Source: Escherichia phage UoN_LG358_1
Sequence record: OK570374
Strand: one strand, 5' to 3'
Length of the DNA: 64,000 nt
The translations under genes and the position numbers were made by a program. Below, one piece after another: positions 2,348-9,200 of the stretch; within the stretch, counting starts at the first letter, position 1; every line of letters begins with the position of its first letter. The notes beneath the pieces are model-generated. The model searched no databases, was not told where the DNA came from, and saw only the letters and a program-made list of their open reading frames with translations.

Positions 2348-4324
2348 ATGGCTTTACTCTCGCCGGGCGTTGAGCTCAAAGAAACTAGTGTACAAAGCAC
2401 TATTGTTAATAATGCTACAGGCCGTGCCGCTATCGCTGGTAAATTTCAATGGGGTCCTGCATTTCAGGTAATTCAGGTAACCAATGAAGTTGAACTCGTC
2501 GATTTATTTGGTACTCCTAATAGCGAAACTGCTGATTATTTTATGTCAGCTATGAACTTCTTGCAATACGGTAATGATTTACGTGTAGCACGTGCAGTTA
2601 ATCGTGACGTGGCGAAAAACTCTTCTCCTATTGCAGAAAATATTGAAACCACAATTTCCGCGGCTGGTTCTAACTATACAGTTGGCGATGTTATCCGTGT
2701 ACGTCATAATATGGATGTAATTGAAACTGCTGGTAAAGTTACTCGTGTAGATGCTGACGGTAAAATTCTGGGAGTGTATATTCCTACTGGTAAAATTATC
2801 GCTTATGCGAAAAGTACTAACCAATATCCAGACCTAGGTCCAAACTGGACTGCAGAAATAGCTTCAAGTTCTTCTGGCGTATCTGGTACTATTACTCTTG
2901 GAAAAATTATCACTGATTCTGGTATTTTGTTAACTGAACCTGAAAATGCTTATGAAGCTATTCGTAATACCACTTTCCAGAACAATTTGAAAAAATATGG
3001 TATGCCGGGTGTAGTTGCTCTTTATCCAGGTGAAATCGGCTCTCAACTTGAAATTGAAATTGTTTCAAAAGCTACGTATGAAAAGGGCGCGGCATCTGAA
3101 CTTTCAATTTATCCAACGGGCGGAACTCGAGTTACTACCGCGCGGGCAGTATTTGGTTATGGTCCACAAACTGATGACCAATACGCGATTATTGTTCGCC
3201 GTGATGGAGCAATTGTAGAGTCAGCTGTTCTTTCAACTAAAGAAGGCGAAAAAGACATTTACGGAAATAACATCTATATGGATGATTATTTTGCCAAAGG
3301 TTCTAGTAACTATATTTTTGGAACAGCAATAGGCTGGCCTAAAGGTTTTTCTGGCATCATCAAATTGAACGGCGGCATTTCTGCGAACTCAGCTGTTACC
3401 GCAGGCGATGTAATGCAAGCATGGGATTTATTTGCTGACCGCGAAGCATTGCACGTTAACTTACTTATTGCTGGCGCGTCTGCAGGCGAAAGTTTAGAAT
3501 TTGCTTCTACTGTGCAGAAACACGTAGTTTCTATTGCCGACGAACGCCAAGATTGTCTTGCTTTAATTTCTCCTCCGCGTGAAATTATCGTAAATATTCC
3601 GTTAACTCGTGCTATTGATAACTTGGTTAACTGGCGTACAGCATCGGCAGCTTATACCGACGATAACATGAACATCAGTTCAACTTACGCATTTATTGAT
3701 GGTAACTATAAATATCAATATGATAAGTACAATGATGTTAACCGTTGGGTGCCACTTTCTGCTGATATGGCGGGTCTGTGCGCTCGTACTGATAATGTTA
3801 GTCAACCTTGGATGTCTCCAGCTGGTTATAACCGTGGTCAAATTCTGAACGTAATTAAACTAGCTGTTGAAGCTCGTCAACCGCAACGTGACCGTTTGTA
3901 TCAAGAAGCAATTAACCCGGTTACTGGCACAGGTGGTGATGGTTTTGTTCTGTTTGGCGATAAAACTGCTACCAAAGTTCCAACTCCATTTGACCGTGTT
4001 AACGTTCGTCGTTTGTTTAATATGCTGAAAACGAATATCGGTAATTCATCGAAATATCGTCTGTTTGAGATTAACGATAACTTTACTCGTTCTTCTTTCC
4101 GCATGGAAACTAGCCAGTATCTGCAGGGAATTAAAGCTCTTGGTGGTATGTATGAGTATCGCGTAGTTTGTGATACTACTAATAACACCCCATCGGTCAT
4201 CGATCGTAATGAGTTTGTTGCAAGCTTTTATGTGAAGCCCGCGAGATCGATAAATTATATTACCCTCAACTTCGTTGCAACTGCGACTGGTGCGGATTTC
4301 GACGAATTGATCGGACCGCAATAA
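2348..4324 (+). CDS. 18: contractile tail sheath protein
   Basis: 658 aa (T4 gp18 is about 659); TATAAATA box about 30 nt upstream; position after gene 17. Confidence 0.95.
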   Translation: MALLSPGVELKETSVQSTIVNNATGRAAIAGKFQWGPAFQVIQVTNEVELVDLFGTPNSETADYFMSAMNFLQYGNDLRVARAVNRDVAKNSSPIAENIETTISAAGSNYTVGDVIRVRHNMDVIETAGKVTRVDADGKILGVYIPTGKIIAYAKSTNQYPDLGPNWTAEIASSSSGVSGTITLGKIITDSGILLTEPENAYEAIRNTTFQNNLKKYGMPGVVALYPGEIGSQLEIEIVSKATYEKGAASELSIYPTGGTRVTTARAVFGYGPQTDDQYAIIVRRDGAIVESAVLSTKEGEKDIYGNNIYMDDYFAKGSSNYIFGTAIGWPKGFSGIIKLNGGISANSAVTAGDVMQAWDLFADREALHVNLLIAGASAGESLEFASTVQKHVVSIADERQDCLALISPPREIIVNIPLTRAIDNLVNWRTASAAYTDDNMNISSTYAFIDGNYKYQYDKYNDVNRWVPLSADMAGLCARTDNVSQPWMSPAGYNRGQILNVIKLAVEARQPQRDRLYQEAINPVTGTGGDGFVLFGDKTATKVPTPFDRVNVRRLFNMLKTNIGNSSKYRLFEINDNFTRSSFRMETSQYLQGIKALGGMYEYRVVCDTTNNTPSVIDRNEFVASFYVKPARSINYITLNFVATATGADFDELIGPQ

Positions 4325-4333
4325 TATCTCACT

Positions 4334-4350
4334 GGGCCTTCGGGCCCTTT
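4334..4350 (+). terminator. hairpin terminator after gene 18
   Basis: GGGCC-ttcg-GGCCC followed by TTT. Confidence 0.6.
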
Positions 4351-4359
4351 GGATTAAAA

Positions 4360-4980
4360 GTGATTATCTCTAAAACTGTTAAGATAAAAATCGTTCCTCA
4401 GAACTTCAAGTACTTCTCTAATCTTGGATATAAACTATCTCCGCTTGGAGCAGTTAAACATGGATTTGAATATTATTCTATCGATGTTAGTGTAGAGCAT
4501 CTAAAACCTGGATCAAATATTGATGTAGAATGTGTATGTGATAAATGCAGTGAGCATTATACTCAAAGATTTTGTAGAAATACTGATGTATGTTATGAAT
4601 GTAGAAGTGGAAAATTTAAGCTCGGCAATAAAATTGGAACTAAGAACAAAGGAAAAATCTTGGTTTCTATGCACGGCGAAAATCATCCTCGTTGGAATCC
4701 AAACAAATCAGACTACAATAAGTACGCTTCTGAAGTTCGTCGCATAACCAATAGAAATAAATCGATTTATTCAAAGTGGGAAAATTTCGATAAAATCGGA
4801 TTATGTGGTGTAGAAGGAGCTTATCAGTTAGATCACAAGGTTTCTATCAAATACGGATTTTATCATCATATACCAGCAGAAATTATAGGGTGTATTGACA
4901 ATTTAGAGATAATCACTTGGGAATCCAATAGAGATAAGTCCGGTAAATCTAGTATCGATTTATGGGATTTACTTAAGTGA
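4360..4980 (+). CDS. putative HNH-type homing endonuclease (free-standing)
   Basis: 206 aa between genes 18 and 19; Cys cluster CVCDKCSEH..CYECR, HGENHPRWNP, and DHKV..IDNLEIITWESNRDK resembling an HNH core; track start is GTG; hairpins on both sides. Confidence 0.5.
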   Translation: MIISKTVKIKIVPQNFKYFSNLGYKLSPLGAVKHGFEYYSIDVSVEHLKPGSNIDVECVCDKCSEHYTQRFCRNTDVCYECRSGKFKLGNKIGTKNKGKILVSMHGENHPRWNPNKSDYNKYASEVRRITNRNKSIYSKWENFDKIGLCGVEGAYQLDHKVSIKYGFYHHIPAEIIGCIDNLEIITWESNRDKSGKSSIDLWDLLK

Positions 4981-5088
4981 TCATAGAATTAACTTAGGGA
5001 CCTTCTAACGAGGGTCCATAAATATATACAGATCACACAATTTAATTCGTCTCGATGGTTCTGGTGAATCTGGAGCTATATAAATAAA

Positions 5089-5096
5089 CACATAGA
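5089..5096 (+). promoter_or_regulatory. late promoter box for gene 19
   Basis: TATAAATA upstream of the ATG at 5104. Confidence 0.7.
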
Positions 5097-5103
5097 GGTT
5101 ATT

Positions 5104-5595
5104 ATGTTTCTTGATGACATGACTCGTGCATTTGAGTCTGGCGACTTAGCTCGTCCTAACTTGTTTGAAGTAGAAATTCCGTACCTTGGCAGAAACTTTA
5201 GCTTTAAATGTAAAGCTGCTCCAATGCCCGCTGGTATCGTAGAAAAAGTACCAGTTGGTTATATGAACCGTAAAATCAACTTAGCTGGTGACCGTACATT
5301 TGATGATTGGACTGTGACTATCTATAACGATGATGCTCATACTACTCGTCAAGCTATCGTTGACTGGCAGGCTATCTGTCATGGTCAAGGCAACGAAATT
5401 ACTGGCGGTACTCCGGCTGAATATAAGAAAACTGCGGTTGTTCGTCAATACCATCGTGATGGTAAGACAGTAACTAAAGAAGTAACAATCACCGGGCTGT
5501 GGCCAACTAACGTTGGTGAAGTACAAATGGATTGGGATTCGAATAACGAGATAGAAACGTTTGAAGTAACGTTTGCGATGGACTGGTGGTTGTAA
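5104..5595 (+). CDS. 19: tail tube protein
   Basis: 163 aa, same length as T4 gp19; TATAAATA 8 nt upstream region; position. Confidence 0.9.
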   Translation: MFLDDMTRAFESGDLARPNLFEVEIPYLGRNFSFKCKAAPMPAGIVEKVPVGYMNRKINLAGDRTFDDWTVTIYNDDAHTTRQAIVDWQAICHGQGNEITGGTPAEYKKTAVVRQYHRDGKTVTKEVTITGLWPTNVGEVQMDWDSNNEIETFEVTFAMDWWL

Positions 5596-7309: not shown

Positions 7310-7551
7310 TGGAAAGTCAATTTATTTCCGCATGCTTATCCAACGACCTCGTTCAGGCACGTAAGCTTTTTGAAAGCATCATGCTTGAAAGGACTACGGA
7401 TTTAATTGGCGAACGCAAAGTTGAAATTGCGCGTTCGTTTTTAATTGAAGGCGAAGAGCCAAAAGACGAAGATGAGTCAGATGAAAAAGATAAAAAAGAA
7501 TCTGACGACGCCGATGAAGGCGATGACGAAGATGAAGATGAGGATGACTAA
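7309..7551 (+). CDS. 67: prohead core protein with poly-acidic C-terminus
   Basis: 80 aa; TAATG overlap with gene 20 stop; C-terminal run [28 protein letters not shown]. Confidence 0.7.
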
Positions 7552-7976
7552 TGTTTCTTATCCCTGAAGACCATGAATTAGTAATCGAAAATGTCGAGAC
7601 TCTTATTCCAGAAGCTCAGGGCCGTTACGAGTCATTATCAAAAGCGTTAAGCAAAGACGATATAAATACAATTGTAGAAAACATGATTGAAACCGATACC
7701 GATTTAGCAATTGCACTCGGTTCAATTAACGAAGATATGCAAATTAACGAATTTATCGTTAAGCATGTTTCAAGTAAAGGCGAAATAACTCGAACTAAAG
7801 ACCGAGCTACTAGAGCTAGAAACGCATTTCAAACTACAGGATTGTCTAAAGCTAAACGCCGCCAAATTGCTCGTAAGGCAACCAAGTCAAAACGTGCTAA
7901 TCCGTCAGGACAAGCTCGTGGACTTCGTAAACGTAAGAAAGCTATGAAGCGCCGCAAAGCGTTAGGATTAAGCTAA
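7551..7976 (+). CDS. 68: prohead core protein
   Basis: 141 aa; TAATG coupling to gene 67; basic C-terminus; position before the protease gene. Confidence 0.65.
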
Positions 7977-8581
7977 TGAAAAAATATGGTAACCACAGAA
8001 AAATTTGGGAAGCAGTTAATGGTCCTATACCATTAGATGAATTTGGACGTAGTTACCATATACATCATATTGACGGAAATCCAGCGAACAATGAATTATC
8101 AAATTTATTATGCTTAAGCCCAAATGACCATTTTGAATTACACAGGTCTCAAGGCGATTTCGGGGCAGCGTTTTTATTACTGAATAACCATTTATCTTTA
8201 TCCGCAGAAGAGCGCTCTGATATTATATCTAAGGCAAATTCAAATAGATGGAAAAATTATTCTGATGCTGAACGCAAAAGCATAATAAATAAAAATAGAA
8301 ATTCAAATATATTTACTTGGTCTTCTGAAAGGCTTCGAAGAGAGACTGGTGCTAAAATTAGTGCATCACACTCAGCCAGGACCAAAGAGCAGAAAGAGCA
8401 AGAATCAATATTAAGATCTTCTTCTATAAAATCTGCTTGGAAATCTAGTTCATTTGACGCTCAAAGAGAACATATGTCAACTAAAGTTGTATGTCCTCAT
8501 TGCGGAAGGGAAGGACAAAAAGCTGCTATGAGCAGATACCATTTTGACAGGTGCAAATATGGAAGAGCAGTTATTAATTGA
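7976..8581 (+). CDS. HNH homing endonuclease-like protein
   Basis: 201 aa; motif YHIHHIDGNPANNELSNLLCLSPNDHFELH; inserted between 68 and 21 and overlapping the gene 21 start. Confidence 0.7.
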   Translation: MKKYGNHRKIWEAVNGPIPLDEFGRSYHIHHIDGNPANNELSNLLCLSPNDHFELHRSQGDFGAAFLLLNNHLSLSAEERSDIISKANSNRWKNYSDAERKSIINKNRNSNIFTWSSERLRRETGAKISASHSARTKEQKEQESILRSSSIKSAWKSSSFDAQREHMSTKVVCPHCGREGQKAAMSRYHFDRCKYGRAVIN

Positions 8582-9200
8582 GAACTGGGGTTTACCCGGT
8601 GAGATAAAAGAAGGAAAACCTCTAATTGAATCAGTAGATTCAAACGGAGAAAAATTGCCTCCTGGCTTGTATATTGAAGGAATATTCCTCCAAGCTGAAG
8701 TTGTGAACCGTAATAAGCGTCTTTATCCAAAACGTATCTTGGAAAAAGCTGTCGCTAATTACATGAAAGAACAGGTTCAGACTAAGCAAGCATTAGGAGA
8801 ATTAAACCATCCACCTCGCGCTAATGTTGACCCTATGCAAGCCGCTATAATTATAGAAGATATGTGGTGGAAAGGAAACGACGTATACGGACGAGCTCGT
8901 ATTATTGAAGGTGACCACGGTCCCGGAGATAAATTAGCAGCTAATATCCGAGCAGGTTGGATTCCGGGTGTTTCAAGTCGTGGACTTGGTTCTTTGACTG
9001 AAACTAACAAAGGTTATAAGATTGTGAACGAAGGTTTTAAACTTACTGTAGGCGTTGATGCAGTATGGGGACCTTCCGCTCCAGATGCTTGGGTGACTCC
9101 GAAACAAATTTCGGAAGGCACACAAGATTCGGCACCAGCTGCCAAGAAAAGTGCTGATGAAGCATTTAAGACTCTCGCAGAGAGTTTAAAAGCATTATAA
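8559..9200 (+). CDS. 21: prohead core scaffold protease
   Basis: Track ORF begins at TTG 8544; the ATG at 8559 gives MEEQLLIENWG, matching the T4 gp21 N-terminus; conserved GELNHPPRANVDPMQAAIIIEDMWWKGNDVYGRAR. Confidence 0.9.
   Translation: MEEQLLIENWGLPGEIKEGKPLIESVDSNGEKLPPGLYIEGIFLQAEVVNRNKRLYPKRILEKAVANYMKEQVQTKQALGELNHPPRANVDPMQAAIIIEDMWWKGNDVYGRARIIEGDHGPGDKLAANIRAGWIPGVSSRGLGSLTETNKGYKIVNEGFKLTVGVDAVWGPSAPDAWVTPKQISEGTQDSAPAAKKSADEAFKTLAESLKAL

What the first reader, a model, noticed from the sequence alone, without database searches (positions are those of the whole stretch)
4360..4980. HNH-like endonuclease ORF inserted between tail sheath and tail tube genes
A 206-aa ORF with a Cys cluster and an HNH-like DH..N..N core occupies the 18|19 junction, flanked by hairpins, with a GTG start. 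I do not recall a gene at this junction in T4. Placement between two essential conserved genes is typical of free-standing homing endonucleases.
Basis: partly seen in the sequence, partly recalled or inferred. Interest (0 to 1): 0.5.

Follow-up and report, generated by a model that had tools for sequence, protein, structure and literature searches.

The report
Homing-endonuclease gene between sheath and tube
The 206-codon gene between the tail sheath and tail tube genes of this T4-like Salmonella phage is real and is very probably a selfish "homing" nuclease gene of a divergent, unannotated HNH type; it is an ordinary kind of element from a large family that nobody has characterised.

Summary
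The window is Salmonella phage S16. The ORF at 4360-4980 is real: GTG start, 206 aa, between gp18 and gp19. It is a precise 656-bp cassette (4325-4980). It is absent from the sister phage Melville, which is otherwise 99-100% identical. Identity drops only in about 175 nt to the left and 120 nt to the right of the insert, and there S16 resembles Citrobacter phages. That is a co-conversion signature. Phage T6 "ORF19.1" (deposited 1994) is a homologue at the same junction; T4 has none. About 12% of T4-like phage records carry the gene. Its divergence does not track that of gp18 and gp19.

Verdict: a free-standing HNH-superfamily homing endonuclease gene, a new member of a known kind. Cleavage has not been tested.

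The parts
2348..4324 (+). gp18 tail sheath gene (left flank; not part of the element)
   Evidence: Pfam Gp18_dom_I, Phage_sheath_1 and Phage_sheath_1C
4150..4324 (+). Left divergent (co-conversion-like) tract in the 3' end of gp18
   Evidence: S16 versus Melville is 76-85% identical here against 97-100% upstream. S16 versus Ursula (ORF+) rises to 95-99% next to the insert. The gp18 protein stays 99% identical.
4325..4980 (+). The inserted cassette: 35-nt leader with hairpin, plus the ORF
   Evidence: Alignment with the ORF-less phages Moon and Melville: the insert lies exactly between the gp18 stop codon and 'TCATAGA'. T6 and HP3 versus T4 show the same layout.
4334..4347 (+). GC hairpin with a UUCG loop followed by TTT; terminator-like; travels with the cassette
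   Evidence: T6, HP3 and Thanatos-2 have GGGGCTTCGGCCCC at the same place.
4360..4980 (+). ORF, 206 aa, GTG start (PHROG 5104, 'unknown function')
4360..4623 (+). N-terminal domain (residues 1-88), predicted DNA-binding, with a CxxC...CxxC zinc ribbon (C60, C63, C78, C81 = 4537-4602)
   Evidence: Conservation. Weak DUF4379 treble-clef hits in 14 of 35 members. pLDDT about 90-96. Every relative matched over most of its length (match starting by query residue 43) whose flanks were available is at the 18|19 junction.
4624..4668 (+). Variable, low-confidence linker (residues 89-103)
   Evidence: pLDDT 52-62. Mosaic and saturated between S16 and Ursula.
4669..4977 (+). C-terminal nuclease domain (residues 104-206): GENHPRWNPNK motif, helix, then a beta-beta-alpha core
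4831..4836 (+). Codons D158-H159 (inferred metal ligand and general base)
   Evidence: H159 is invariant in all four alignments; D158 is invariant in two and at least 90% conserved in the other two. They lie at the end of predicted strand 155-159.
4900..4902 (+). Codon N181 (structural Asn of the HNH motif)
   Evidence: Invariant or at least 90% conserved; at the start of strand 182-186
4927..4929 (+). Codon N190 (inferred metal-binding Asn in the helix)
   Evidence: Invariant (at least 90% conserved); lies in helix 187-193
4981..5100 (+). Right divergent tract: the ancestral 18-19 intergenic region
   Evidence: S16 versus Melville is 72-87% identical; S16 versus Merlin (ORF-less Moonvirus) is 97-99%
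4998..5017 (+). Ancestral intergenic hairpin, also present in ORF-less phages
5079..5086 (+). TATAAATA, a T4-type late-promoter motif serving gp19. No such motif lies between the gp18 stop and the ORF.
5104..5595 (+). gp19 tail tube gene (right flank; not part of the element)
   Evidence: Pfam Phage_T4_gp19

Best explanation
The ORF is a free-standing homing endonuclease gene. Its product is modular. An N-terminal zinc-ribbon domain (inferred) binds DNA at the sheath|tube junction. A C-terminal His-Me-finger (HNH-superfamily) domain is inferred to nick or cut the DNA of a co-infecting relative that lacks the gene. In that domain H159 would act as general base and D158 and N190 would hold the divalent metal. 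N181 braces the hairpin, and the usual zinc cysteines are missing. Recombinational repair from the ORF-bearing genome would then copy the 656-bp cassette, together with about 100-200 nt of flanking sequence, into the recipient. Expression is probably low and late: the gene has a GTG start, a weak Shine-Dalgarno sequence next to a terminator-like hairpin, and no promoter of its own, so it depends on read-through from the gp18 late transcript.

Shown here: presence/absence polymorphism at a precise site, flank replacement, incongruent phylogeny, modular architecture, purifying selection, conserved catalytic residues, and an HNH-like predicted fold.

Inferred, not shown: catalysis, target site, nick versus double-strand break, and the homing event itself.
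For: 1. Identity and polymorphism. The window is 100% identical to phage S16. Other Gelderlandviruses (Melville, STML-198, CGG4-1) and the Moonviruses Moon and Merlin lack the ORF.
2. Precise cassette. The insert lies exactly between the gp18 stop codon and the ancestral intergenic region. T6 and HP3 versus T4 have the same layout.
3. Flank replacement. S16 versus Melville is 99-100% identical across gp17-gp20 except at 4150-4324 and 4981-5100. In those tracts S16 is 95-99% identical to Citrobacter phages.
4. Distribution. 244 phage records carry the gene, against 1998 with a gp19 homologue. In Tequatrovirus about 70 of about 600 records carry it, and in two lineages that are 57% identical to each other inside flanks that are 99-100% identical.
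5. Incongruence. Spearman correlation is 0.45 for orfX versus gp19, against 0.77 for gp19 versus gp18.
6. Site fidelity. 51 of 80 IMG/VR loci lie at the 18|19 junction, including phages whose gp19 is only about 30% identical.
7. Modularity. The nuclease domain recurs with HTH_23/28/38, NUMOD3 and Zn_ribbon_IS1595 N-termini. Such relatives sit at nrdA|nrdB, after a DnaB-like helicase, and after gp23.
8. HNH evidence.
   - Relatives give sub-threshold HNH_4/HNH hits over the DH strand.
   - One relative hits PHROG 6050, 'HNH endonuclease', at 5.5e-5.
   - JGI labels several relatives McrA.
   - P0082 has the same N-terminal domain and GENHPRWNPN linker but carries a canonical PF01844 HNH in the equivalent position.
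9. Selection. dN/dS is 0.19 overall and 0.04 in the nuclease domain.
Against: - No curated profile recognises the S16 protein as HNH: Pfam, NCBIfam, PHROGs and PADLOC all fail.
- Profile-profile comparison with one canonical HNH subfamily aligned only the linker motif.
- Foldseek against the PDB was not significant, best E = 0.5.
- The two CxxC zinc sites typical of many HNH domains are lost.
- No consistent 'immunising' substitutions in ORF-bearing alleles could be defined, so the target site is unknown.
- No biochemical or genetic data on any member were found in the searchable literature.
Confidence: 0.75

Rival explanations
1. It is a domesticated or dual-use nuclease that the phage keeps because it pays. 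It might exclude the markers of competing T4-like phages, or promote local recombination or amplification, rather than being a purely selfish homing gene.
For: Both domains are under strong purifying selection. The gene persists at one site across very distant T4-like phages, where it can be more conserved than gp19. Precedents exist for seg and mob genes: marker exclusion of T2 by T4 (PMC2993671) and SegB-driven amplification of anti-defence loci (PMC13096335, abstract only, seen).
Against: Only about 12% of T4-like records carry the gene. Near-identical sister phages do without it. Purifying selection is also expected for an actively spreading homing gene. The two readings are not mutually exclusive.
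Confidence: 0.15
2. It is a catalytically dead HNH relic that now acts only as a sequence-specific DNA- or RNA-binding protein, for example to tune expression of gp18 relative to gp19.
For: The zinc-binding cysteines of the HNH core are lost. Curated HNH profiles fail. The gene sits between two genes whose products are needed in fixed stoichiometry.
Against: D158-H159, N181 and N190 are invariant or nearly so across thousands of diverged relatives. The same domain is attached to interchangeable DNA-binding modules at unrelated loci, which is what a catalytic cartridge looks like. Most relatives lack the gene.
Confidence: 0.07
3. It is a terminase-accessory HNH nuclease, like HK97 gp74 or the GVE2 HNH, that helps DNA packaging.
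For: The best structural matches, 4h9d and 5h0o, belong to the small phage/terminase-associated HNH nickase class. The ORF lies two genes downstream of terminase gp17.
Against: It is absent from Melville, T4 and about 88% of T4-like phages, which use the same gp16/gp17 headful packaging system. Relatives sit at nrdA|nrdB, DnaB and gp23 sites. It is separated from the terminase genes by gp18.
Confidence: 0.02
4. It is a chance ORF or an annotation artefact.
For: The GTG start, the weak ribosome-binding site, and the 'hypothetical protein' label in nearly all records.
Against: 82 clusters at E<=1e-3, 244 phage records, 3932 representative clusters for the C-terminal domain, dN/dS of 0.19, and a confident AF2 fold.
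Confidence: 0.01

Closest known systems
[not shown]
   Same: It belongs to the same protein family: 43% identity over the full length. It sits at the same 18|19 junction, starts with GTG, has the same UUCG hairpin in its leader, and is absent from T4.
   Different: It is a different lineage. Its N-terminal domain is much more diverged than its nuclease domain. Like the S16 gene, it has no assigned function.
Free-standing HNH homing endonucleases of T4-like phages (MobA-E; Pfam HNH_3, the I-HmuI type)
   Same: The lifestyle is the same: a small free-standing gene between conserved essential genes, patchily distributed, and modular (nuclease plus DNA-binding module) (PMC2988022). The window itself carries one at 7976-8581.
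   Different: Mob and HNH_3 proteins have the nuclease at the N-terminus and match HNH_3. This ORF has the nuclease at the C-terminus, gives no HNH_3 hit, and has a DH-N-N core without zinc cysteines.
McrA/Cas9-type HNH domains (Pfam PF01844 and PF13395) and the small HNH nickases Gme-HNH (4h9d) and GVE2-HNH (5h0o)
   Same: They are the best structural matches. Relatives give sub-threshold profile hits over the DH strand. From memory of the SpCas9 sequence, the motif spacing is the same: 'DH' on beta-1, then 'IDN...', then nine residues to 'N-R-x-K'. This compares 'IDNKVLTRSDKNRGK' in Cas9 with 'IDNLEIITWESNRDK' here.
   Different: Scores are below every curated threshold. The beta-1/beta-2 insert is about 8 residues longer. 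No CxxC zinc sites remain. The domain is attached to homing-type DNA-binding modules.
Hef / Hef-like homing endonucleases (phage U5; Acj9p227; PHROG 3339)
   Same: They are also free-standing homing endonucleases of T4-like phages that were described as having no similarity to known families (PMC3322345). One relative of this ORF (L071) shares the DUF7487 / PHROG 3339 N-terminal module with the presumed Hef-like protein Acj9p227 (the Hef identification is inferred from its nrdA|nrdB position).
   Different: The nuclease domains are unrelated: hhalign of Acj9p227 against the family gives probability 0.5%. Acj9p227 instead gives a weak REase_MTES_1575 hit.

Membership tests
HNH / His-Me-finger nuclease superfamily | A beta-beta-alpha-metal fold | tested here: met
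   [not shown]
HNH / His-Me-finger nuclease superfamily | A catalytic His at the end of beta-1 (preceded by D or H), a structural Asn, and a metal-binding Asn or His in the helix | tested here: met
   H159 is invariant and D158, N181 and N190 are invariant or at least 90% conserved in four alignments.
HNH / His-Me-finger nuclease superfamily | A match to a curated HNH profile above its threshold (Pfam PF01844, PF13392, PF13395, PF13391, PF14279) | tested here: not met
   The S16 protein gives no HNH hit at E<=1. Relatives give only sub-threshold hits: HNH_4 at 0.0016-0.023 and HNH at 0.04. NCBIfam gives nothing.
HNH / His-Me-finger nuclease superfamily | Divalent-metal-dependent cleavage of nucleic acid | not testable with these tools
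   This needs biochemistry.
Free-standing homing endonuclease gene | Presence/absence polymorphism at one precise site among close relatives | tested here: met
   S16 versus Melville, Moon and Merlin; T6 and HP3 versus T4.
Free-standing homing endonuclease gene | Co-conversion of flanking sequence together with the gene | tested here: met
   Divergent tracts are confined to about 175 nt on the left and 120 nt on the right of the insert, in a background that is 99-100% identical. T6 versus T4 shows a left tract.
Free-standing homing endonuclease gene | A modular nuclease plus DNA-binding architecture, with horizontal spread | tested here: met
   Domain swaps with HTH, NUMOD3 and Zn-ribbon modules; relatives at other homing sites; divergence incongruent with the flanking genes.
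Free-standing homing endonuclease gene | Cleavage of the gene-less allele near the insertion site, and super-Mendelian transfer in mixed infection | not testable with these tools
   This needs cleavage mapping and phage crosses.
Mob-type (HNH_3) T4 homing endonucleases | An N-terminal HNH_3 domain | tested here: not met
   The ORF gives no HNH_3 hit, whereas the neighbouring ORF 7976-8581 hits HNH_3 at 1.9e-12 in the same search.
Hef-like homing endonucleases | Homology to Hef-like proteins (Acj9p227, PHROG 3339) | tested here: not met
   hhalign gives probability 0.5% and E = 0.11. No PHROG 3339 hit.
Terminase-associated HNH (HK97 gp74 / GVE2 type) | Conserved next to the terminase genes in all relatives and needed for packaging | tested here: not met
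   Absent from about 88% of T4-like records and from the sister phage Melville. Separated from gp17 by gp18.

The most novel reading that the evidence does not exclude
This may be a very old, 'site-faithful' homing-endonuclease lineage. It would have kept the sheath|tube junction as its home across the whole T4 superfamily: enterobacterial, Acinetobacter, Sinorhizobium, Campylobacter and uncultured aquatic phages. It would have done so by repeated re-invasion and by swapping its DNA-binding module while keeping a Pfam-invisible, zinc-less HNH cartridge. If so, it would be the most widely distributed single-site free-standing homing gene known in phages, and possibly one retained for inter-phage competition.
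Probability: 0.3. Interest if true: 0.55.

Novelty: new member of a known kind. Interest (0 to 1): 0.35.

Why it matters
It gives a function to a gene that most of the phage records seen here label 'hypothetical protein' (or even holin, head morphogenesis protein or type II restriction endonuclease), out of 244 records that carry it. It also gives a function to a Pfam-less domain family of about 3900 representative clusters.

It adds a homing gene that the 2010 census of T4-related genomes did not count for Acj61, which is listed there with only three seg-like genes.

It explains a local patch of foreign sequence in the gp18 and gp19 region of S16, a phage considered for Salmonella biocontrol.

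It also offers a clean natural donor/recipient pair, S16 and Melville, which are 99-100% identical outside the element, for measuring homing and co-conversion.

Tried and rejected
- Curated profile libraries. Pfam, NCBIfam, PHROGs and PADLOC on the S16 protein gave no functional hit. The only matches were PHROG 5104 ('unknown function') and noise.
- PDB by sequence. The single-sequence search returned noise. The whole-protein profile returned only weak zinc-finger hits. The nuclease-domain profile returned spurious leucine-rich-repeat matches to the 'P-E-I-G-x-L-x-N-L' stretch.
- hhalign against a canonical PF01844 subfamily, gathered from P0082's HNH domain. It aligned only the GENHPRWNPN linker (probability 52%). 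With the linker removed, nothing aligned.
- Foldseek against the PDB. Not significant, although the top hits were HNH proteins.
- The Hef hypothesis, prompted by 'Hef-like' genes next to tail tube genes in LIMEstone1. Rejected for the nuclease domain by hhalign against Acj9p227. The Sandegren 2005 and Repoila 1994 papers are not held in the library.
- An apparent orfX-gp19 fusion in Acinetobacter phage AbTZA1. This was an artefact of my ORF extension; the record has a stop codon.
- Literature searches for 'ORF19.1', 'gp19.1' and S16 homing endonucleases. Nothing relevant was found.
- A search for consistent 'immunising' substitutions in ORF-bearing gp18 3' ends. S16 and Ursula differ from Moon and Melville at several synonymous sites, but HP3 and T6 versus T4 do not show the same pattern. 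The target site therefore remains undefined.

Full report
**What is there.** The window is Salmonella phage S16: nt 4200-5200 are 100% identical to HQ331142/NC_020416. The ORF listing gives a + strand ORF at 4360-4980 with a GTG start and 206 aa. It lies between gp18 tail sheath (2348-4324) and gp19 tail tube (5104-5595), both confirmed by Pfam.

C60, C63, C78 and C81 are at least 90% conserved.
- The DH..N..N core is real. H159 is invariant, and D158, N181 and N190 are invariant or nearly so, in four alignments.
- Both hairpins exist: 4334-4347 upstream and 4998-5017 downstream.
- The GTG start fits the conserved N-terminus M-I-I-S-K of homologues that start with ATG. It also fits the depositors' note on the T6 homologue.

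**It is an insertion with replaced flanks.** Other Gelderlandviruses (Melville, STML-198, CGG4-1) and the Moonviruses Moon and Merlin lack the ORF. Alignment places the insert exactly between the gp18 stop codon and the ancestral intergenic sequence, at 4325-4980, 656 bp.

In 100-nt windows, S16 and Melville are 99-100% identical from gp17 to gp20. The exceptions are 4150-4324 (76-85%) and 4981-5100 (72-87%). In these two tracts S16 is instead 95-99% identical to the Citrobacter phages Ursula (ORF-bearing) and Merlin. The gp18 and gp19 proteins remain 99% and 100% identical. This is the pattern left by double-strand-break repair with co-conversion of flanking markers.

The T-even phages repeat the pattern. 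T4 has a 116-nt gap at this junction. T6 and HP3 carry a cassette with the same layout: gp18 stop, GC hairpin with a UUCG loop, GTG, ORF, and then the unchanged T4-type intergenic hairpin and late promoter. The last 150 nt of gene 18 drop to 84-87% identity against T4.

- Among about 600 Tequatrovirus-like records, only about 70 contain the T6-type insert. A second lineage (HP3, RB5, RB9, RB10) occupies the same site.
- T6 and HP3 have gp19 99% identical and the gp18 C-terminus 100% identical, but their ORFs are only 57% identical. Most of that divergence is in the N-terminal half.
- In IMG/VR, 51 of 80 related loci sit at the 18|19 junction. These include every locus matched over most of its length (match starting by query residue 43), and two in the opposite orientation.
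- Some of these phages have gp19 only about 30% identical to S16 while the ORF is 48-54% identical.
- Over 153 pairs, ORF identity correlates poorly with gp19 (rho 0.45) and with gp18 (0.35). gp19 and gp18 correlate with each other at 0.77.

The gene does not co-evolve with its neighbours. It moves, and it is replaced in situ.

**What the protein is.** AlphaFold2 gives two confident domains joined by a disordered linker (pLDDT 89.6).

The N-terminal domain (residues 1-88) contains the CxxC...CxxC ribbon. It gives weak DUF4379 'treble clef' hits in 14 of 35 members.

The C-terminal domain (residues 104-206) is the conserved cartridge. It recurs in 3932 representative clusters at E<=1e-3. In relatives it is fused to other N-terminal modules: HTH_23/28/38, Sigma70_r4_2, HTH_7, NUMOD3 (E = 2.4e-8), Zn_ribbon_IS1595 and DUF7487. 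These relatives sit at other classic homing sites:
- between the large and small ribonucleotide reductase subunit genes;
- after a DnaB-like helicase gene;
- after the major capsid gene gp23.

One weak full-length relative, P0082, has the same N-terminal domain and the same GENHPRWNPN linker, but a canonical PF01844 HNH domain where S16 has its DH-N-N domain.

Selection is purifying. dN/dS for S16 versus Ursula is 0.11 in the N-terminal domain and 0.04 in the nuclease domain.

**Is it HNH?** By curated sequence profiles, no. Pfam, NCBIfam, PHROGs and PADLOC give nothing for the S16 protein. hhalign against one canonical HNH subfamily failed. An HMM search of the PDB gave only spurious LRR hits.

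Every weak signal, however, points the same way.
- Relatives give sub-threshold HNH_4 (0.0016-0.023) and HNH (0.04) hits exactly over the DH strand.
- One junction relative hits PHROG 6050, 'HNH endonuclease', at 5.5e-5.
- JGI labels several relatives McrA.
- No other nuclease family ever appears.

From my memory of SpCas9, the segment 'IDNKVLTRSDKNRGK' matches 'IDNLEIITWESNRDK' here, with identical N-to-N spacing. The CxxC zinc sites of many HNH domains are replaced (T186, S189; only C149 remains).

I conclude that superfamily membership (His-Me finger, DH-N-N type) is well supported. Membership of any named Pfam HNH family is not.

**Relation to Hef.** The 'Hef-like' class of T4-type homing endonucleases was a lead. 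The presumed Hef-like protein of Acj9 (Acj9p227, a 'homing endonuclease' between nrdA and nrdB, the Hef position; PHROG 3339) shows no relationship to this family: hhalign probability is 0.5%. One family member does share its DUF7487 N-terminal module. The 2010 census of T4-related genomes lists Acj61 with three seg-like genes only. Yet Acj61 carries this ORF at 18|19 (L006). The family was evidently not recognised as a homing gene at that time.

**Expression (inference).** T4-type late-promoter motifs (TATAAATA) precede gp18, gp19 and gp20, at 2310, 5079 and 5702. None lies between the gp18 stop and the ORF. The ORF would therefore be read from the gp18 late transcript, through a terminator-like hairpin whose extended stem includes the only GGA upstream of the GTG. 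This fits the tight, late, low expression described for T4 homing genes (PMC2988022). The UUCG hairpin is conserved, with compensatory changes, in S16, T6, HP3 and Thanatos-2. It belongs to the cassette.

**Verdict.** This is a free-standing homing endonuclease gene of a divergent, zinc-less HNH type. It is one member of a large, uncharacterised family, and many of its members, including all those matched over most of their length, sit at the sheath|tube junction. The kind of element is ordinary for T4-like phages, so interest is moderate. Nothing here shows catalysis, the target site, or actual homing. Those need the experiments listed under next steps.

Noticed in passing
window 7976-8581 (+), with flanks 7551-7976 and about 8559-9200: A second free-standing homing-type ORF: 201 aa, Pfam HNH_3 E = 1.9e-12, with a C-terminal CxxC...CxxC. 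It lies between gp68 and gp21 and is absent from Melville, Ursula and Merlin. It starts at the ATG that is gp21's start codon in Melville. gp21 now starts inside the ORF's 3' end. The first ~110 nt of gp21 are 66-81% identical to Melville, against 98-100% elsewhere.
   Followed up: partly
L001:2272-2850 (Citrobacter phage Moon) and L089:1345-1965: The neighbouring 19|20 junction, which is empty in S16, holds a GIY-YIG (seg-like) ORF in Moon and in a Thanatos-like contig. The two ORFs are 53% identical to each other. The junctions of the tail/head gene module look like general homing hot spots.
   Followed up: partly
L091 (Campylobacter phage CP21, NC_019507 43768-50019): A 388-aa relative, CP21_075 (PHROG 5104, E = 7e-12), lies among four fragments annotated as a gp18-like tail sheath. 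Three more 'homing endonuclease' ORFs follow. The sheath gene may be split by mobile elements.
   Followed up: no
L088:1-2980 (Shewanella phage Thanatos-2): The large terminase is encoded by two consecutive ORFs. The first also hits Tn7_TnsA-like_N, which suggests another nuclease insertion in gp17.
   Followed up: no
window 4334-4347; L093 and L095 about 2960-2990; L088 about 5000: The GC hairpin with a UUCG tetraloop just upstream of the ORF is conserved, with compensatory stem changes (GGGCC/GGCCC versus GGGGC/GCCCC), between ORFs that are only 43-71% identical. In Acinetobacter phages the corresponding hairpin carries TATAAATA in its loop.
   Followed up: partly
Public annotations of homologues (and tables): The same protein is variously annotated as hypothetical protein, HNH endonuclease, type II restriction endonuclease, holin, or putative head morphogenesis protein. 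In RB5, RB9 and RB10 it is not annotated at all.
   Followed up: no
window 3400-3500: There is a small isolated dip to 93% identity between S16 and Melville inside gp18, away from the insert. It is unexplained.
   Followed up: no
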